From NCBI GenBank assembly GCA_003144275.1, contig NJBF01000005.1:30001-62000 (forward strand): 32,000 bases of DNA, given 5' to 3'. The position numbers and the translations under genes are program-made. Each line of letters opens with the position of its first letter. Position 1 is the stretch's first letter. The DNA is from Candidatus Heimdallarchaeota archaeon B3_Heim. Lineage in GTDB: Archaea; Asgardarchaeota; Heimdallarchaeia; Hodarchaeales; Hodarchaeaceae. Of the stretch, positions 12,398 to 18,173 are shown one piece after another. The notes beneath the pieces are model-generated. The model was not told the DNA's origin. It was given only the letters and a program-made list of their open reading frames with translations, and ran no database searches.

Positions 12398-12733
12398 ATG
12401 GATATACTGGAGAAAGAAATTTTGGTATCCGTAGCGCGTATTCGGTTAATGAGCACTGATGTTGAACAATTAGACGGCATTTGTAAAGAAATGAAGAGGA
12501 TTGCAGACAAGTCTGGGGTAAAAATGAGAGGCCCAATCCCTTTACCAACAAAGAAATTACGATTGCCCGTTAGAAAATCGCCCAGTGGACAAGGAACAGC
12601 GACTTGGGAGGATTATGAACTTCGTATACATAAAAGGTTGATCGATATAGATGCCGATGACCGGACTATGAGACAGATAATCCGATTAAATGTTTCTCGC
12701 ACTATTTTTGTTGAAATTGAATTACGTACTTAA
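12398..12733 (+). CDS. rps10: 30S ribosomal protein S10 (uS10)
   Basis: ARIRLMST, GPIPLPTKKL...RKSPSGQGTATWEDYELRIHKRLID. The true start may be about 8 codons downstream. Confidence 0.97.
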   Translation: MDILEKEILVSVARIRLMSTDVEQLDGICKEMKRIADKSGVKMRGPIPLPTKKLRLPVRKSPSGQGTATWEDYELRIHKRLIDIDADDRTMRQIIRLNVSRTIFVEIELRT

Positions 12734-12749
12734 ACTGAAGGAATAGATT

Positions 12750-13325
12750 ATGACTGCTTCAGATACCATGAAAATATTCGGACTATGGGATTCCCAAGAT
12801 ATTGAAGTTGCCGACATCAGTCTAAAACGTTATATTAATCTTGAAGAACGACTTTTGCCACATAGTTCAGGGCGACATGAGCACAAACGATTTCATAAGT
12901 CATACGTCCATGTTGTTGAACGTCTTGCAAATAAGCTTATGAGTCCAGGTAAAAATACGGGGAAGAAAATTTTAGCTCTAAATATTGTTAAAACCGCCAT
13001 GCAAATAATTGAATTGAAAACTAATAAAAATCCAATTCAAGTTATTGTTGATGCTATTGTAAACTGTGCCCCTAGAGAGGAAACAACTCGAATATCCTAT
13101 GGAGGAATTGTCTATCACACTGCGGTAGATAGTGCACCGCAGAGAAGGGTAGATGTGGCACTTCGATTACTTGCTAATGCAGTAAGAAGAGCCTCATTCA
13201 ATAATGTCCGTGCAGTTGACGAAATATTAGCCGAGCAATTGATTCTCGCTGGTACAAACAATACCAACTCAAGCGCGATAAAAAGAAAACAGGATATCGA
13301 ACGTGTAGCCTTAAGTGCGCGGTAA
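12750..13325 (+). CDS. rps7: 30S ribosomal protein S7 (uS7)
   Basis: LPHSSGRHEHKRFHKS, VERLANKLM, NCAPREETTRI, DSAPQRRVDVALR, ERVALSAR. Confidence 0.98.
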   Translation: MTASDTMKIFGLWDSQDIEVADISLKRYINLEERLLPHSSGRHEHKRFHKSYVHVVERLANKLMSPGKNTGKKILALNIVKTAMQIIELKTNKNPIQVIVDAIVNCAPREETTRISYGGIVYHTAVDSAPQRRVDVALRLLANAVRRASFNNVRAVDEILAEQLILAGTNNTNSSAIKRKQDIERVALSAR

Positions 13326-13424: not shown

Positions 13425-14762
13425 CTAATTAGAAAATAATTCGTGTACTATTCCCACAGCGATTGTACTTCCAGAATGCCGTAAGATTATCCGTCCTAAT
13501 TCGGCATAGTCTGTGAATTTTTCTACTACAAGCGGAGTATTAATAAGTAAATCCACTTCTACTAACTCCCCCTCGAACGCTATAGTTATCCGTCCCTCAA
13601 ATTCTCTCTGTAATTTTTTATATTTGGGACTCTTATTCAGAATTTTCGTAATTTGCTCAATCTGAGCAGTAGAATAGGACGCACCACAATGGAAGACTAC
13701 TGAAGATCCTGGAACAAATGTACCTTCTAGAATTAAAAGGCGAGAGCGAATTTTAACGCCGAATTGATATTCTGTATTTTTCGGAGCTAAAACTATTCCT
13801 TCTCCCAAAATATCTTTGGGTAAATTCCTTAATAATACTGATCCATGTTCTCCTGGATTTAGAGCTTCTTGTTTTTCATCCTCCACCCATAATTCTTTGA
13901 TTTCTGATTCTATCCCTTGGGGGAGAATTTTAACTTTTTCACCCGATTTAAGTTGTTGACTGAGTGCTTTTCCTAAGAGAAATGTCCCAAATCCATGTCT
14001 CTCAATAATATCGTAACCAACGAATCGCATTTCCATATTTTTCTCATACTTTACTCCTTTCAACGAATTTAAAGCTTCTAATAATGTATAACCGTCATAC
14101 CACTCCATTTGACGGGAGTGTTCTGATAAATTCTCCCCAGCTAATCCGCTAATGGGAATAAATGGAATACTTTCAATTTGTTGGGTCCAAGGAGATTGGA
14201 TCTCCCGAAAGAGTTGTTTTATTTTATCAACTGCCTCGTGATACCGATCTTGTCTATACTCGACTTGATCCATTTTATTGATAGCAATGATAACTTGATT
14301 GATTCCCAATACAGAGGCTAAAATAGCATGTTCTCTTGTCTGACCTCCAGGATCTTGGTAACCTCCTACTTTCAATCCTGATTTCAAATCATTGGGGACA
14401 GCACTAATTACCAAAACACAAGCGTCAGCTTGAGAAGCTCCTCGTATCATATTCTTTACAAAGTCCCGATGACCAGGTGAATCAATTAGCATAAATTTTC
14501 TTTGCTCTGTTTCAAAAGGATAGAAGGCAATATCAGAAGTAATACCTCGCTGCTTTTCCTCAGGTAGCGTATCAAGTACGTAAGCCCACTTCCATGATTC
14601 CATTTGATGTTCAATAGCCTCTTCCTCCAATTTTTCTATCGTACGAACATCAATAGCGCCGATCTGAGATAAAAGATGACCTAATGTTGTAGATTTGCCA
14701 TGATCCACATGGCCAATCCATATTAAAGATATAGTTGGCTTAGAATTAACCATAAGTATCAC
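13425..14762 (-). CDS. EF-1alpha-family translational GTPase, paralog 2 (eRF3/Hbs1-like domains II-III)
   Basis: G1 GHVDHGKST, G2 RGIT, G3 DSPGH, G4 NKMD, G5 ISG, and GQTREH. Domains II-III are divergent and lack the EF-1alpha SIEMHH/GDNIGF motifs. Start is GTG 14762 or ATG 14753. Confidence 0.9.
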   Translation of the reverse strand: MILMVNSKPTISLIWIGHVDHGKSTTLGHLLSQIGAIDVRTIEKLEEEAIEHQMESWKWAYVLDTLPEEKQRGITSDIAFYPFETEQRKFMLIDSPGHRDFVKNMIRGASQADACVLVISAVPNDLKSGLKVGGYQDPGGQTREHAILASVLGINQVIIAINKMDQVEYRQDRYHEAVDKIKQLFREIQSPWTQQIESIPFIPISGLAGENLSEHSRQMEWYDGYTLLEALNSLKGVKYEKNMEMRFVGYDIIERHGFGTFLLGKALSQQLKSGEKVKILPQGIESEIKELWVEDEKQEALNPGEHGSVLLRNLPKDILGEGIVLAPKNTEYQFGVKIRSRLLILEGTFVPGSSVVFHCGASYSTAQIEQITKILNKSPKYKKLQREFEGRITIAFEGELVEVDLLINTPLVVEKFTDYAELGRIILRHSGSTIAVGIVHELFSN

Positions 14763-14816
14763 TGCCTGAAATTAGGCTGAAAGGAAAAAAGAAAAAGAAA
14801 TTGAGAAAGAAAAAGT

Positions 14817-16346
14817 TTAGGAGGCGTATTTATTTCTTTCGACTTTTTGGACTACTCCAACAGCAACTGTTTTTCCTGAATCGCGGAGTGCAAATCGTCC
14901 AAGAGCTGGAGTTTTGGTGATTGGCTCCACCACTAAAGGTGTTAAAGGAGTCATCCAAACCATACCCCTCTCACCTTGACCCAGATTATCCTGTTCTTGA
15001 ACCGCAGTCACACGGCATGCAACTTGTGCAGTTCCACAGTGAACCACAGGAGAGTAGTTTTCATGAATTCCCCAGGCTTCGTCTTTCTTCTTAGCTTTTT
15101 TACCTAGTCCTCTGACCACGAGTACCAATGATAAAAATCCGTCCACATTTGGTTTTAAAGCTTCTGCTGGATCCGCCGGATCACTCACGACAGCACCGCG
15201 TATAATATCATTCGCACCTATATTTTTTGTTTTAATGTTGAAACCGATATTGTCTCCTGGCATTGCTTGCGGAATATCTTTGTGAAATTCTTGAATTGAC
15301 TTCACAGTAATTGGTACTGGTGCAATATCTTGTTTTGTAGGGGAAATTACCATCTCTGAATTCGGTTTTAGTACTCCAGTAGAAAGTCTTCCAGTTAGGA
15401 CTGTCCCTACGCCACTTATATTGAGTGTTTGTTGAATTGGTAATCGGATTGCTTGTTTTGCCAACGCGTCTTTACGAATGGCTGGTGATTCCAAAACATC
15501 AAGCGAATCAACGAGGGATGGTCCATCATACCATGATAAACCTTCAAAACCTGCTTTTATGTCCTCAATCTCTTTTTGTAACGATTCAATGAATTCAGGA
15601 TCTGCATTTCCAGCTTTTGCTGCAGATACATGTCCTTCTAAGTTTTTCACTGAATTTTCTTTAGAGAGAAGATTCACACCTACTAATCCACTAGTGGGAA
15701 CATATTTAATTGCTTCTAAACGGGCCTCTTTGTTCTCTATTTGTAATGCGGACATTAATTGAGTAAAGATAGTATGAATTGCAGTTTTGATTTGCTCATA
15801 TCTTTCCTTACCCCAGTCAACAACGTCCATTTTATTGATAGCTACAACAATATTTGTAACTCCAAGTGAAGTTAGGAGAAGCATATGCTCTGTTGTCATA
15901 CCTATAACGTTAGCATATTTTCCAGAAGCGGTTCCAGCGACTTTGGTTCCGTCTTCGAATTCTCCTTTTCTTGCAGATACAACTAAAATAGCGGCATCTG
16001 CTTGAGAAGCGCCGGTAATCATATTTTTTATAAAATCACTATGGCCTGGAGCATCGATTAAGTTATAGATGAATTTCTTGGTCTTAAATTCTTGGAAAGA
16101 TATGTTAATTGTGAGACCTCGTTCTCTTTCATCCATCAGAGGATCCAAAATCCAGGCGTACGACCAGCTACCCATGCCCGTAGCTTTGCTTTCTTTATAG
16201 TATTTTTCAGCAATTCGCCAAGGTTGTCGTTTCTTTTTAGGATCATGTATCTGACCTAGTAAGAACAACATGTGGCCAAGACCGGTAGATTTTCCGTGAT
16301 CAACGTGTCCTGTGACCACTAAATTCATTCTTTCGAGATCTGCCAT
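14817..16346 (-). CDS. tuf: Elongation factor 1-alpha, divergent, with insertions (paralog 1)
   Basis: GHVDHGKST, ERERGLTI, DAPGHSDFIKNMITGASQAD, NKMD, RLPIQ...GVGTVLTGR..TGVLKP, PGDNIGFN, LGRFALRDSGKTVAVG. At 509 aa it is longer than typical aEF1A because of three insertions. Confidence 0.88.
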   Translation of the reverse strand: MADLERMNLVVTGHVDHGKSTGLGHMLFLLGQIHDPKKKRQPWRIAEKYYKESKATGMGSWSYAWILDPLMDERERGLTINISFQEFKTKKFIYNLIDAPGHSDFIKNMITGASQADAAILVVSARKGEFEDGTKVAGTASGKYANVIGMTTEHMLLLTSLGVTNIVVAINKMDVVDWGKERYEQIKTAIHTIFTQLMSALQIENKEARLEAIKYVPTSGLVGVNLLSKENSVKNLEGHVSAAKAGNADPEFIESLQKEIEDIKAGFEGLSWYDGPSLVDSLDVLESPAIRKDALAKQAIRLPIQQTLNISGVGTVLTGRLSTGVLKPNSEMVISPTKQDIAPVPITVKSIQEFHKDIPQAMPGDNIGFNIKTKNIGANDIIRGAVVSDPADPAEALKPNVDGFLSLVLVVRGLGKKAKKKDEAWGIHENYSPVVHCGTAQVACRVTAVQEQDNLGQGERGMVWMTPLTPLVVEPITKTPALGRFALRDSGKTVAVGVVQKVERNKYAS

Positions 16347-16924
16347 TATTATTCACCAGAATATTATTTATTTACTTTTGTATAGGATTAATTAAACACA
16401 AAATATCATTAAAATTGGTTTTAATCCTAAGAAACAGCGAAACAAAAAACTATTTATCTCATTTTGCTTTAGTTTGCTAGCAAATATTCGTACTAAAATA
16501 AGAAGATAATTGAATTCTATTTTACAAACAGCTAACTTCTCTAAAAATCGATAATTCGAACTCTAATCTTTGATAAAGCATCATTCGGCTCATTTTTTTA
16601 TAGTCTTCCGAGCAAAGATGTCCTCCATATTTACCAGAGACGGAAAATATTCAAGTTATACTTTTACAATATGATTCTTGTACTCTTGAGTATTTTTTCA
16701 CAGAAACTGGGAGAGAAGTCTGACTTCAGCTTTTTTTGGGATTCTATAAAGATGGGGCAAGTTTGGGGGATGAGGTTATATAAGATGAGCCCCCCGCAAG
16801 ATCACCCACCAGGATTTTAATTGAAAAAACTTTACTAATTTTGAGTAACTCTCTTTTCCTCCTCTTTTTTTATTCTTAGATGTAAATTTTCAGATAAACA
16901 GATTGTATACAGAGCTTTTTTCGA

Positions 16925-17926
16925 CTAGTATAACTGGACTAATGGTTTTGCTAATAATAGATAATGTTCTCTCAGGGTAAATTCAGCAATTTCTAAGATT
17001 TCTGATAATTTCTTTTGGGTCAGTACACCACGTCTACTTTGCCTTAAGTAGCACTCAGGAAAGACCTTATGCCTTGCTAATAGAATATCTGCTGCATTTA
17101 TCATTGCAGCAGCCAATATGAATGGATTCCGTCCACCTCGTTTTGTTAACGGGAAACGATTCAGCAATTGTTTTGCCACAACTTTTAGATACTGAAAAAA
17201 TTCCTCACGATTACTGGTCCTTTTTAGTATAGCACTTCTAAGAAGATAGTCTTTCTGAATTCTTCCTATTATCGCATCAAGGTATTCTTCAGACTTCACA
17301 TGCCTGACTCTAATCTTAACATATTGTCGTATTAAAGATGCTGATCTTATAATGTCTTTACCTGCTATTGAGTACCCGTTGATTTGTACTGCTTTTACTA
17401 GTCTATTTAACTCAATATTTTCTTTTCTTGTTCGTACCGCTAAATATAACGCTCCCATTATTAGGCAAGATAGCTTCATTTTCTTTTTTAACTGGAGGTG
17501 AACTTTTTGGAATAGAAAGAGGGTATCTGCTTTTGTAGCGTCGGTTAATTCAAGATTACTACAAACTCGGGATAATAAACTGAATCCTCTATATTCTCGC
17601 TGACGGCCATTGAAATGTAAGTAGATGTCATTTATTGACTTTAATCTCCGATATTGAAGTTTCTTTGCAAGCGCCAATTGGGTACCAGAGGAGTCCACAA
17701 AATTTTTTTTTTGAAAAGATCCAATAAATGTTCCTAGGGTTTTCATTCTGCTAGGTTGTTCGCTTATTGAGGCATACTGACTTCCATAGCTACCTTCGGA
17801 ACTTATTAGTTGAATAGGCGGTTTTTCATAGATTTGCTGGGCAATTAATCCACAATTTACACATACAACGTCCGAATCTGTTTGTATTAAATTTCCATTG
17901 CACTCTAGGCACTTATACTTCATCAT
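16925..17926 (-). CDS. Transcription initiation factor IIB (TFB) family paralog
   Basis: Zn ribbon CLECNG...VCVNCGLI at ATG 17926, two cyclin-like repeats (GRNPFILAAA) and a C-terminal HTH TQKKLSEILEIAEFTLREHY. Confidence 0.85.
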   Translation of the reverse strand: MMKYKCLECNGNLIQTDSDVVCVNCGLIAQQIYEKPPIQLISSEGSYGSQYASISEQPSRMKTLGTFIGSFQKKNFVDSSGTQLALAKKLQYRRLKSINDIYLHFNGRQREYRGFSLLSRVCSNLELTDATKADTLFLFQKVHLQLKKKMKLSCLIMGALYLAVRTRKENIELNRLVKAVQINGYSIAGKDIIRSASLIRQYVKIRVRHVKSEEYLDAIIGRIQKDYLLRSAILKRTSNREEFFQYLKVVAKQLLNRFPLTKRGGRNPFILAAAMINAADILLARHKVFPECYLRQSRRGVLTQKKLSEILEIAEFTLREHYLLLAKPLVQLY

Positions 17927-18173
17927 ATTCACAGGTAGAATACGATATATACTAATATCTAAACTAAATATAGAATGAGAGACATATATGAAAATGAAGC
18001 TCTTTGATTTTACCAATCAACAGGGCAAGCGTGCTAGTATACAGTTTCATTTATATTCAAACGAGAAGATGGGGGAGAATTATTATGAAAATATAAAAGG
18101 CAAACACCCCCCAAAAAAAAATAACTTAAAATGAATTATTTCCGCAAATGATAATGCTAGAGGAATAAAACTG

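What the first reader, a model, noticed from the sequence alone, without database searches (positions are those of the whole stretch)
13425..16346. Tandem divergent EF-1alpha paralogs: possible Asgard subfunctionalisation paralleling eEF1A versus eRF3/Hbs1
In studied archaea one aEF1A serves elongation, termination (aRF1) and rescue (aPelota), while eukaryotes split these jobs among eEF1A, eRF3 and Hbs1. Here two complete G-II-III GTPases are 54 nt apart on one strand. The 509-aa copy keeps EF1A domain II/III signatures. The 445-aa copy has a near-canonical G domain (GQTREH), but its domain II (GEKVKILP, EIKELWVEDEKQEALNPGEHGSVLL) has lost the aminoacyl-end pocket motifs and reads more like eRF3/Hbs1. 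The two are very different from each other, so the duplication is old.
Basis: partly seen in the sequence, partly recalled or inferred. Interest (0 to 1): 0.8.

Follow-up and report, generated by a model that had tools for sequence, protein, structure and literature searches.

The report
Tandem divergent EF1A paralogs in Hodarchaeales
This Hodarchaeales archaeon has no ordinary elongation factor 1-alpha; it carries two old, very different copies side by side, and the second has lost the tRNA-end-binding residues much as eukaryotic eRF3/Hbs1 have, so it may be a separate carrier for release and rescue factors.

Summary
Two complete EF1A-type GTPases lie in tandem on the minus strand: 14817-16346 (509 aa) and 13425-14762 (445 aa, more likely 442 aa from the ATG at 14753). 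They are 29% identical.

The genome is a Hodarchaeales MAG, 94% complete. It has no canonical aEF1A, one aRF1, one aPelota, an aEF1-beta, no SelB and no CysD. The pair is found in nearly all Hodarchaeales genomes searched. The 445-aa family ('PAR') also occurs, unlinked, in one other Heimdallarchaeia family, and was not found elsewhere among 301 Asgard genomes.

The 509-aa copy is the positional tuf and keeps most EF1A-conserved residues, though its pocket is remodelled and it has four insertions. PAR keeps all GTPase motifs, but its domain II/III retention of EF1A-conserved residues falls to the eRF3/Hbs1 level. A predicted PAR-aPelota complex passes its controls, though similar complexes have been solved.

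Phylogeny cannot say whether PAR is sister to eRF3/Hbs1 (AU p about 0.5). Two shared insertions and exclusive residues link PAR to the 509-aa/f7 EF1A, which favours an independent, parallel duplication. The function is inferred, not shown. The scan had noted this same stretch once before (e1-5447902).

The parts
14817..16346 (-). 509-aa divergent EF1A ('Hod509'), the probable working elongation factor of this organism
   Evidence: ORF. It has the G, II and III domains. It is the best EF-1alpha match in the genome but falls below the cut-off. Identity within Hodarchaeales is 62-97%. It lies 16 kb from rpoA1, as tuf does in the f7 family. It retains 77% of a/eEF1A-conserved columns. The AF2 model has pLDDT 85.
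15537..15674 (-). Insertion in Hod509 (about residues 225-270) predicted to form a two-helix hairpin between the G domain and domain II
   Evidence: It is absent from every other group in the alignment. AF2 predicts helices at 229-245 and 250-269 with block pLDDT 94-96.
13425..14753 (-). 442-aa paralogue ('PAR'; 445 aa if the GTG at 14762 is used): an intact translational GTPase with a degenerate aminoacyl-end pocket
   Evidence: ORF and start region. The G1-G5 motifs and the catalytic His are invariant in 57 family members. Domain II retention of EF1A-conserved residues is 0.44-0.51, against 0.45-0.46 for Hbs1/eRF3. The AF2 model has pLDDT 86.5. The predicted complex with aPelota scores 0.63 against 0.00 for controls.
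14754..14816 (-). 63-nt pyrimidine-rich spacer between the two genes, with runs of T5-T6 and no clear promoter or hairpin terminator
   Evidence: Sequence read. The consensus scan found nothing above shuffles. Whether the two genes are co-transcribed is not known.
16347..16924 (-). 578-nt AT-rich region upstream of the 509-aa gene. An A/T-rich box lies about 20-30 nt before the ATG and may be an archaeal promoter (inferred).
   Evidence: Sequence read. The role is inferred only.
12398..13325 (+). Ribosomal protein genes S10 (12398-12733) and S7 (12750-13325), convergent with the pair; a remnant of the str/tuf gene cluster context
   Evidence: Pfam Ribosomal_S10 at 1.2e-28 and Ribosomal_S7 at 3e-40.

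Best explanation
The locus holds an ancient duplication of the elongation factor 1-alpha gene, conserved as a tandem pair across Hodarchaeales.

The upstream 509-aa gene is the organism's working aa-tRNA carrier. It sits in the tuf position and is the slower-evolving copy. It keeps most EF1A-conserved residues and has an aEF1-beta exchange factor available in the genome. It also carries four insertions and a remodelled amino-acid pocket.

The downstream 442-aa gene (PAR) is a catalytically intact, ribosome-dependent GTPase that no longer has the canonical aminoacyl-CCA pocket or the EF1A domain III signature. I infer that PAR has taken over delivery of the tRNA-shaped protein factors aPelota and/or aRF1 to the ribosomal A site, and so acts as an archaeal analogue of Hbs1/eRF3.

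Shared insertions indicate that this split arose within Heimdallarchaeia from an insertion-bearing EF1A. That makes it parallel to the eukaryotic eEF1A versus eRF3/Hbs1 split rather than ancestral to it.

Shown: the gene anatomy, the distribution, the residue loss and the absence of a canonical tuf. Inferred: which copy binds what.
For: Distribution
- There is no canonical aEF1A in the own genome or in any Hodarchaeales genome searched. Nearly all carry the adjacent pair. Other Heimdallarchaeia families have one canonical aEF1A at 620-712 bits.
- The PAR family (over 350 bits) is found only in Hodarchaeales and family f7 among 301 Asgard genomes.

Residue retention
- Across 130 columns that are at least 90% conserved in a/eEF1A, retention is f7EF 0.88, Hod509 0.77, PAR 0.61-0.63, Hbs1 0.66 and eRF3 0.63.
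- In domain II alone the values are 0.86, 0.69, 0.44-0.51, 0.45 and 0.46.
- Of 20 EF1A-specific columns lost in both Hbs1 and eRF3, f7EF keeps 0.92, Hod509 0.54 and PAR 0.22-0.25.
- The pocket motifs are degenerate in PAR: SIEMHH becomes K-E-L/I-W, and GDN becomes GEH.
- All GTPase motifs are invariant in 57 PAR sequences.

Evolutionary rate
- On shared contigs PAR is always the more divergent copy, for example 66% against 87% and 45% against 66% identity to the window's copies.

Genome inventory
- The genome has one aRF1 and one aPelota, an aEF1-beta, no CysD and no SelB (the third EF-Tu-class ORF is aIF2-gamma).

Predicted complex
- PAR with aPelota, GTP and Mg scores 0.63; the best of 3 controls scores 0.00. 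That mark was reached by 58 of 80 solved complexes and 2 of 110 mismatched pairs. The runs agree in at least 92% of contacts, and the partner pLDDT is at least 86.
- Similar complexes have been solved (3WXM, 5LZW), so the pass may come from memory.

Independent origin
- PAR, f7 PAR, Hod509 and f7EF share two insertions absent from aEF1A, eEF1A, Hbs1 and eRF3.
- Under strict thresholds, exclusive residue states are 2 (plus 2 partial) for PAR with Hod509/f7EF, against 0 for PAR with Hbs1+eRF3.
- PAR keeps the EF state at the eRF3/Hbs1 signatures I93 and K103.
Against: - No binding or activity data exist.
- Hod509 itself has lost the D and Y of QDVY and the E of IEMHH, so the assignment of aa-tRNA carriage rests on elimination and conservation, not on an intact pocket.
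- Sequence trees lean the other way on origin. FastTree, the quick C20-PMSF tree and both single-domain trees place PAR sister to eRF3+Hbs1 (support 93, 90, 71 and 96). The tree constrained that way has a log-likelihood 3.5 higher than the free careful tree.
- In an RpoA1 tree, Hodarchaeales and f7 are not sisters. A single origin of the pair therefore requires loss, or replacement by an insertion-free EF1A, in the other Heimdallarchaeia families.
Confidence: 0.45

Rival explanations
1. PAR is the archaeal sister or orthologue of the eukaryotic eRF3/Hbs1 lineage. Under this reading the EF1A versus eRF3/Hbs1 duplication predates eukaryotes and survives in Hodarchaeales and one other Heimdallarchaeia family. 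The function would be the same as in the best explanation; only the origin differs.
For: - PAR is sister to eRF3+Hbs1 in FastTree (SH-like 93), in the quick LG+C20 PMSF tree (SH-aLRT 90), in the G-domain tree (71) and in the domain II+III tree (96).
- The tree constrained to this grouping is 3.5 log-likelihood units better than the free careful tree.
- Hodarchaeales and f7 branch separately at the base of Heimdallarchaeia in the RpoA1 tree, which allows an old origin.
- At the A76-stacking position, PAR has Trp and eRF3 has Phe/Tyr.
Against: - The AU tests reject nothing: p is 0.56 for this grouping and 0.52 for eEF1A+Hbs1+eRF3 as one clade.
- The careful free tree puts PAR with Hod509 and f7EF (UFBoot 79 and 69).
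- Both insertions are shared with Hod509/f7EF and absent from all three eukaryotic families.
- PAR shares 1 of 5 eRF3+Hbs1 signature residues and no exclusive state with them.
- All the branches involved are long, and both groups have lost the same constraints, so attraction between them is expected.
Confidence: 0.25
2. PAR is a second tRNA carrier or an alternative elongation factor. It might serve a subset of aminoacyl-tRNAs or a non-canonical tRNA, or act as a stress isoform or a GTPBP1-like factor, rather than carrying aRF1 or aPelota.
For: - PAR has the full EF1A architecture and a closed GTP-like model (TM 0.86-0.87 to aEF1A).
- It keeps the Asp of the QDVY motif, and most family members keep the Tyr.
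- Hod509's own pocket is remodelled, so the load might be shared between the two.
- GTPBP1 is a precedent for an EF1A relative that still delivers aa-tRNA (PMC12775451 abstract).
Against: - PAR retains only 22-25% of the EF1A-specific columns that eRF3/Hbs1 also lost.
- The GDN Asn and the EMHH motif are gone.
- In f7 a fully canonical EF1A coexists with PAR, so PAR is not needed there for bulk elongation.
- The genome has no SelB, and no Sec-type role is suggested.
Confidence: 0.2
3. PAR has left translation altogether. It could be a CysN-like regulatory GTPase of a metabolic enzyme, or a decaying redundant copy.
For: PAR scores somewhat higher on the CysN models than Hod509 does (218-222 against 150-157 bits).
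Against: - The CysN scores are below cut-off (336 bits), and the genome has no CysD.
- The EF-1alpha models score higher (341 bits).
- All GTPase motifs are invariant across 57 sequences spanning 40-92% identity, so the gene is not decaying.
- The gene context is translational in both lineages.
Confidence: 0.05

Closest known systems
Archaeal aEF1A (e.g. Aeropyrum pernix aEF1A in complex with aRF1 or aPelota, PDB 3VMF, 3WXM)
   Same: Both copies share its three-domain architecture and all GTPase motifs. It is the best PDB sequence match for both (273-275 bits) and the best fold match for PAR (TM 0.86-0.87). The predicted PAR-aPelota interface uses switch II and domain III, as expected for this family.
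   Different: Canonical aEF1A does all three jobs as a single gene. Here both copies fall below the family cut-offs. Both carry two extra G-domain insertions. The aminoacyl pocket motifs are altered: strongly in PAR, partly in Hod509.
Eukaryotic eRF3 and Hbs1 (e.g. PDB 5LZT, 5LZW)
   Same: PAR is an EF1A-derived GTPase that coexists with a bona fide elongation factor. It evolves faster than that factor. It has lost EF1A-conserved domain II/III residues to the same extent as eRF3/Hbs1. Some trees place it as their sister.
   Different: PAR has no N-terminal extension. It lacks their signature residues (K103 rather than P, I93 rather than L) and shares no indel with them. Its two insertions are shared instead with the archaeal partner copy. 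Monophyly with eRF3/Hbs1 is not resolved.
Marseilleviridae eEF1A/Hbs1/eRF3-like GTPases with eRF3 activity (Zinoviev et al. 2019, PMC6582330)
   Same: They are a precedent for an EF1A-family GTPase close to eEF1A/Hbs1/eRF3 that stimulates eRF1. That such proteins can lack the N-terminal extension is my reading of the unnamed 415-455-aa eRF3-like metagenome proteins.
   Different: The viral proteins sit with eukaryotic eRF3 in my trees. PAR is archaeal and far more distant, at 33% identity to an eRF3 core.
Asgard EF-2 paralogues (Narrowe et al. 2018, PMC6143161)
   Same: This is another case of a core translational GTPase duplicated in Asgard archaea, with one canonical and one divergent copy. 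The LC3 (Hodarchaeales) lineage stands out in that study too.
   Different: It concerns a different factor family (EF-2). The LC3 clade has no EF-2 paralogue, and that paper does not treat EF1A.

Membership tests
Translation elongation factor EF-1 alpha (NCBIfam TIGR00483 / PRK12317) | Whole-protein score above the curated cut-off | tested here: not met
   Hod509 scores 338 and 364 bits; PAR scores 318 and 341 bits. The cut-offs are 540 and 502. The f7 EF1A (P0191) passes PRK12317 with 554 bits.
Translation elongation factor EF-1 alpha (NCBIfam TIGR00483 / PRK12317) | G domain plus domain II plus domain III, with intact G1-G5 motifs and the catalytic His | tested here: met
   Pfam domains are present in both copies. 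GHVDHGKS, DxPGH, NKMD and SG(L) are present and invariant in both families.
Translation elongation factor EF-1 alpha (NCBIfam TIGR00483 / PRK12317) | Conserved aminoacyl-CCA pocket motifs of domain II (QDVY, SIEMHH, PGDNVGFN) | tested here: not met
   PAR reads (Y/Q)D(A/I)(Y/I), K(E/D)(L/I)W and GEH. Hod509 reads QQTL, SIQEFH and PGDNIGFN, so it partly meets the feature. f7EF is fully canonical.
eRF3/Hbs1 subfamily | Residues shared by eRF3 and Hbs1 but not by a/eEF1A (e.g. DF(I/V)PNMI Pro, and Leu before DxPGH) | tested here: not met
   PAR shares 1 of 5 such columns and keeps K103 and I93. No state is exclusive to PAR with Hbs1+eRF3.
eRF3/Hbs1 subfamily | Forms one clade with eRF3 and Hbs1 | tested here: inconclusive
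   PAR is their sister in the FastTree, quick and per-domain trees, but not in the careful tree. The AU test gives p 0.56.
eRF3/Hbs1 subfamily | N-terminal extension (PAM2 or HBS1_N region) | tested here: not met
   PAR starts 12 residues before the P-loop, and Pfam finds no extra domain.
eRF3/Hbs1 subfamily | Binds eRF1 or Pelota and delivers it to the ribosome | not testable with these tools
   There is only a model: PAR with aPelota scores 0.63 against 0.00 for controls. Similar complexes have been solved, so this shows likeness, not binding.
CysN (sulfate adenylyltransferase large subunit) | Score above cut-off and a CysD partner in the genome | tested here: not met
   TIGR02034 scores 218 bits against a cut-off of 336. 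CysD was not found; the best hit is 37 bits against a cut-off of 397.
SelB | Score above cut-off and C-terminal winged-helix extension | tested here: not met
   TIGR00475 scores 104 bits against a cut-off of 242. PAR ends with domain III.

The most novel reading that the evidence does not exclude
PAR is the surviving archaeal member of the lineage that gave rise to eukaryotic eRF3 and Hbs1. If so, the separation of elongation from termination and rescue GTPases began in Heimdallarchaeia before eukaryogenesis. The insertions PAR shares with the neighbouring EF1A would then reflect gene conversion between tandem copies.
Probability: 0.25. Interest if true: 0.9.

Novelty: new variant of a known kind. 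Interest (0 to 1): 0.62.

Why it matters
In the archaea studied so far, one aEF1A carries aa-tRNA, aRF1 and aPelota. Dedicated eRF3/Hbs1 GTPases are treated as a eukaryotic invention.

Here the archaeal order most often placed next to eukaryotes has given up the canonical single aEF1A. It has fixed two specialised copies instead, and one of them has shed tRNA-pocket constraints in the eRF3/Hbs1 manner. Whether this is parallel evolution or shared ancestry, it gives a natural system for testing how one decoding GTPase splits into an elongation factor and a factor carrier.

There is also a practical point. Both genes are annotated only as 'GTP-binding protein', so Hodarchaeales genomes appear to lack EF1A. 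EF1A markers from this order carry insertions and long branches that can disturb phylogenomic analyses of eukaryote origins.

I found no paper on this in six full-text searches.

Tried and rejected
- P0094, a nematode protein high in the PAR hit list, looked like an eRF3/Hbs1 link. It is a fused tandem eEF1A gene model.
- Several plant proteins annotated as 'release factor-like' or 'HBS1-like' are eEF1A fusions.
- The short eRF3-like metagenome proteins (P0408, P0411, P0412) were checked as possible archaeal eRF3. Their contigs are AT-rich, rich in ORFans, and one carries a D5_N primase-helicase gene. They are not in GTDB genomes, so they are probably giant-virus genes. The Atlas look-up added nothing.
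- PDB sequence ranks, group-HMM scores and Foldseek do not separate aEF1A-like from eRF3/Hbs1-like for PAR.
- The bacterial-type promoter and terminator scan found nothing above shuffles.
- RNA-library contigs from four studies cover most of the 509-aa gene at 85-99% identity, and only short conserved patches of PAR. These are contigs of relatives, DNA carry-over is possible, and lack of cover says nothing, so I draw no conclusion about expression or co-transcription.
- aRF1 was not used for the complex job because its reading frame has no ATG, GTG or TTG near the conserved N-terminus.
- EFL, Ski7 and GTPBP1/2 sequences could not be obtained with names, so they are missing from the trees.
Full report
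**1. What is there**

The minus strand carries two complete open reading frames. One runs 14817-16346 (509 aa, here Hod509). The other runs 13425-14762 (445 aa from a GTG start, here PAR). An ATG at 14753 gives a 442-aa protein beginning MVNSKPT, which matches the 442-443 aa of homologues, and a 63-nt pyrimidine-rich spacer.

Both proteins have the EF-Tu-type G domain, domain II and the eEF1A-type C-terminal domain. They are 29% identical to each other. Ribosomal protein genes S10 and S7 lie convergently just downstream.

**2. Organism and gene inventory**

Close homologues are named Candidatus Hodarchaeales or Heimdallarchaeota LC_3. The window lies in a 3.95-Mb assembly that is 94% complete.

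- Both copies score far below the curated EF-1alpha cut-offs: 364 and 341 bits against 502.
- The genome holds no other EF1A. The only further EF-Tu-class hits are aIF2-gamma and an 813-aa factor.
- It has one aRF1 and one aPelota and an aEF1-beta.
- It has no CysD and no SelB.

**3. Distribution**

I searched 83 genomes of the class.

- Every Hodarchaeales genome with a hit carries only these two types. With few exceptions, such as G069, they are adjacent on the same strand in the order 509 then PAR. None has a canonical aEF1A.
- Four other Heimdallarchaeia families have a single canonical aEF1A at 620-712 bits and no paralogue.
- One further family (f7, unnamed) has a 465-aa EF1A at 495-520 bits (here f7EF) plus an unlinked PAR orthologue.

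Among 301 Asgard genomes, PAR-type matches above 350 bits occur only in Hodarchaeales and f7.

Hod509 and f7EF both lie 12-16 kb from rpoA1, the usual tuf neighbourhood. In f7, PAR sits in a conserved cluster with a DEAD-box helicase carrying DUF5814, two small ORFs and a PHP-domain protein, close to aIF2-gamma and S6e.

In an RpoA1 tree, f7 groups with the other Heimdallarchaeia families (98/98) rather than with Hodarchaeales.

**4. Residue evidence on function**

I aligned 95 sequences: 22 aEF1A, 8 eEF1A cores, 14 Hbs1 cores, 20 eRF3 cores, the two Hodarchaeales families, the two f7 families and EF-Tu. Sequences came, and names.

Retention of the 130 columns that are at least 90% conserved in a/eEF1A:

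| Group | All columns | Domain II |
|---|---|---|
| f7EF | 0.88 | 0.86 |
| Hod509 | 0.77 | 0.69 |
| PAR | 0.61-0.63 | 0.44-0.51 |
| Hbs1 | 0.66 | 0.45 |
| eRF3 | 0.63 | 0.46 |

Twenty columns are conserved in EF1A but lost in both Hbs1 and eRF3. Of these, f7EF keeps 0.92, Hod509 0.54 and PAR 0.22-0.25.

The motifs known from EF-Tu/EF1A ternary complexes to line the aminoacyl-A76 pocket are QDVY, SIEMHH and GDN. Their role is established knowledge of 1TTT-type structures and rests on my memory. They read as follows:

| Group | QDVY | SIEMHH | GDN |
|---|---|---|---|
| f7EF | canonical | canonical | canonical |
| Hod509 | QQTL | SIQEFH | PGDNIGFN |
| PAR | (Y/Q)D(A/I)(Y/I) | K(E/D)(L/I)W | GEH |

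All GTPase motifs are invariant in 57 PAR sequences that span 40-92% identity to the window's copy.

On shared contigs PAR is always the more divergent copy, for example 66% against 87% identity.

This pattern gives three readings:
- f7EF is a normal elongation factor.
- Hod509 is a modified one, and is the only candidate for bulk aa-tRNA delivery in Hodarchaeales.
- PAR is an active translational GTPase that has dropped the constraints of tRNA-end binding, as eRF3 and Hbs1 have.

**5. Structure and complex models**

- The AF2 model of PAR has mean pLDDT 86.5 and adopts the closed, GTP-type arrangement.
- Foldseek matches it about equally well to aEF1A bound to aRF1 or aPelota (3VMF, 3WXM; TM 0.86-0.87), to eRF3 (5LZT; 0.87) and to Hbs1L (5LZW; 0.86).
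- The Hod509 model has pLDDT 85. Its large insertion forms a confident two-helix hairpin at residues 229-269.
- The complex job used PAR with the genome's aPelota, GTP and Mg. It scored 0.63, and the best of 3 controls scored 0.00. That mark was reached by 58 of 80 solved complexes and 2 of 110 mismatched pairs. The runs agree in at least 92% of contacts, and the partner pLDDT is at least 86.
- The contacts run from the Pelota central and C-terminal domains to PAR switch II and domain III. They include the PAR-specific basic loop at residues 381-393.
- aEF1A-aPelota and Hbs1-Pelota complexes have been solved, so this pass shows likeness and not that PAR binds. Hod509 could not be run for comparison.

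**6. Origin**

*Trees disagree.*
- FastTree places PAR as sister of eRF3+Hbs1 (SH-like 93).
- The quick LG+C20 PMSF tree does the same (90), as do the per-domain trees (71 and 96).
- The careful search gives (f7EF,(Hod509,PAR)) with UFBoot 69 and 79.

*AU tests reject nothing.*
- Forcing PAR+Hbs1+eRF3 together gives a log-likelihood 3.5 higher than the free tree (p 0.56).
- Forcing the classical eEF1A+Hbs1+eRF3 clade gives 1.6 higher (p 0.52).

The backbone is therefore unresolved.

*Rare changes point one way.*
- PAR, f7 PAR, Hod509 and f7EF all carry an insertion of 6-14 residues between GEFEAG and GQTREH.
- All four carry an extra 4-9 residues, modelled as a short helix, after the helix that follows NKMD.
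- Both insertions are absent from every aEF1A, eEF1A, Hbs1 and eRF3 sequence in the alignment.
- Under strict thresholds, PAR shares 2 exclusive states with Hod509 and f7EF together, plus one with each alone. It shares none with Hbs1+eRF3.
- PAR keeps the EF state at three eRF3/Hbs1 signature columns.

I therefore favour a duplication of an insertion-bearing EF1A inside Heimdallarchaeia, parallel to the eukaryotic split, at about 0.65-0.7. The alternative, that PAR is the archaeal sister of eRF3/Hbs1 with the insertions shared through gene conversion or later lost in eukaryotes, stays open at about 0.25.

The RpoA1 topology complicates a single origin. It would require loss of the pair, or replacement by an insertion-free EF1A, in four families. 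It could also reflect an error in a single-gene species tree.

**7. Comparison with the literature**

Six full-text searches found no description of EF1A paralogues in Hodarchaeales or other Asgard archaea.

- Narrowe et al. 2018 treat EF-2 paralogues and note eukaryote-like EF-2 indels in the LC3 clade, but they do not treat EF1A.
- Zinoviev et al. 2019 showed that Marseilleviridae EF1A/Hbs1/eRF3-like GTPases act as eRF3. This is a useful precedent for PAR. That such proteins can lack an N-terminal extension is my own reading of the short eRF3-like metagenome proteins.

**8. Verdict**

The functional split and the relationship to eRF3/Hbs1 remain untested.

I class this as a new variant of a known kind of protein. 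It is of real interest because it occurs in the archaeal order closest to eukaryotes and makes an old question testable at the bench.

Noticed in passing
window 15537-15674 (-), residues about 225-270 of the 509-aa protein: A 45-residue insertion is predicted with high confidence as a two-helix hairpin between the G domain and domain II. Three further insertions lie at residues about 33-43, 136-147 and 412-425. Their function is unknown.
   Followed up: partly
G000:C80:24292-25512 (-), locus L005:1480-2790: The aRF1 reading frame has no ATG, GTG or TTG between the upstream stop and the conserved N-terminal region (…ISYRAYKYERELKEL…). It may use a non-standard start codon, or the assembly may have a local error.
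   Followed up: no
L091-L093 (family f7 genomes G072, G075, G081), e.g. L092:2520-8440: In f7 the PAR orthologue sits in a conserved same-strand cluster: an 871-aa DEAD-box helicase with DUF5814, two small ORFs with no family, PAR, and a PHP-domain protein. aIF2-gamma and S6e lie nearby. A helicase next to an Hbs1/Ski7-like GTPase is suggestive of RNA surveillance, but this was not tested.
   Followed up: partly
L125 (52.5-kb Logan contig), L126, L127: Metagenomic proteins of 415-455 aa with no N-terminal extension are 42-49% identical to a plant eRF3 core. They sit on AT-rich (28-30% GC), ORFan-rich contigs, one next to a D5_N primase-helicase gene. They are probably giant-virus eRF3-like genes of the kind studied in PMC6582330.
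   Followed up: partly
RpoA1 loci L208-L234: In an RpoA1 tree (LG+C20, 867 columns), family f7 groups with the other non-Hodarchaeales families of the class (98/98). The two lineages that carry the EF1A pair are therefore not sisters in this gene tree.
   Followed up: partly
set1 alignment; G-domain tree: Eukaryotic eEF1A groups with canonical, insertion-free aEF1A sequences of unnamed origin that resemble the Heimdallarchaeaceae-type consensus (P0193; SH-aLRT 94 in the G-domain tree). It does not group with the Hodarchaeales 509-aa copy. This matters when EF1A is used as a marker for eukaryote origins.
   Followed up: no
window 16925-18016 (-): A 363-aa ORF has only a sub-threshold TFIIB-repeat match (22 bits) and a Zn-ribbon-like CxxC…CxxC N-terminus. 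It may be a divergent TFB paralogue upstream of the EF1A pair.
   Followed up: no
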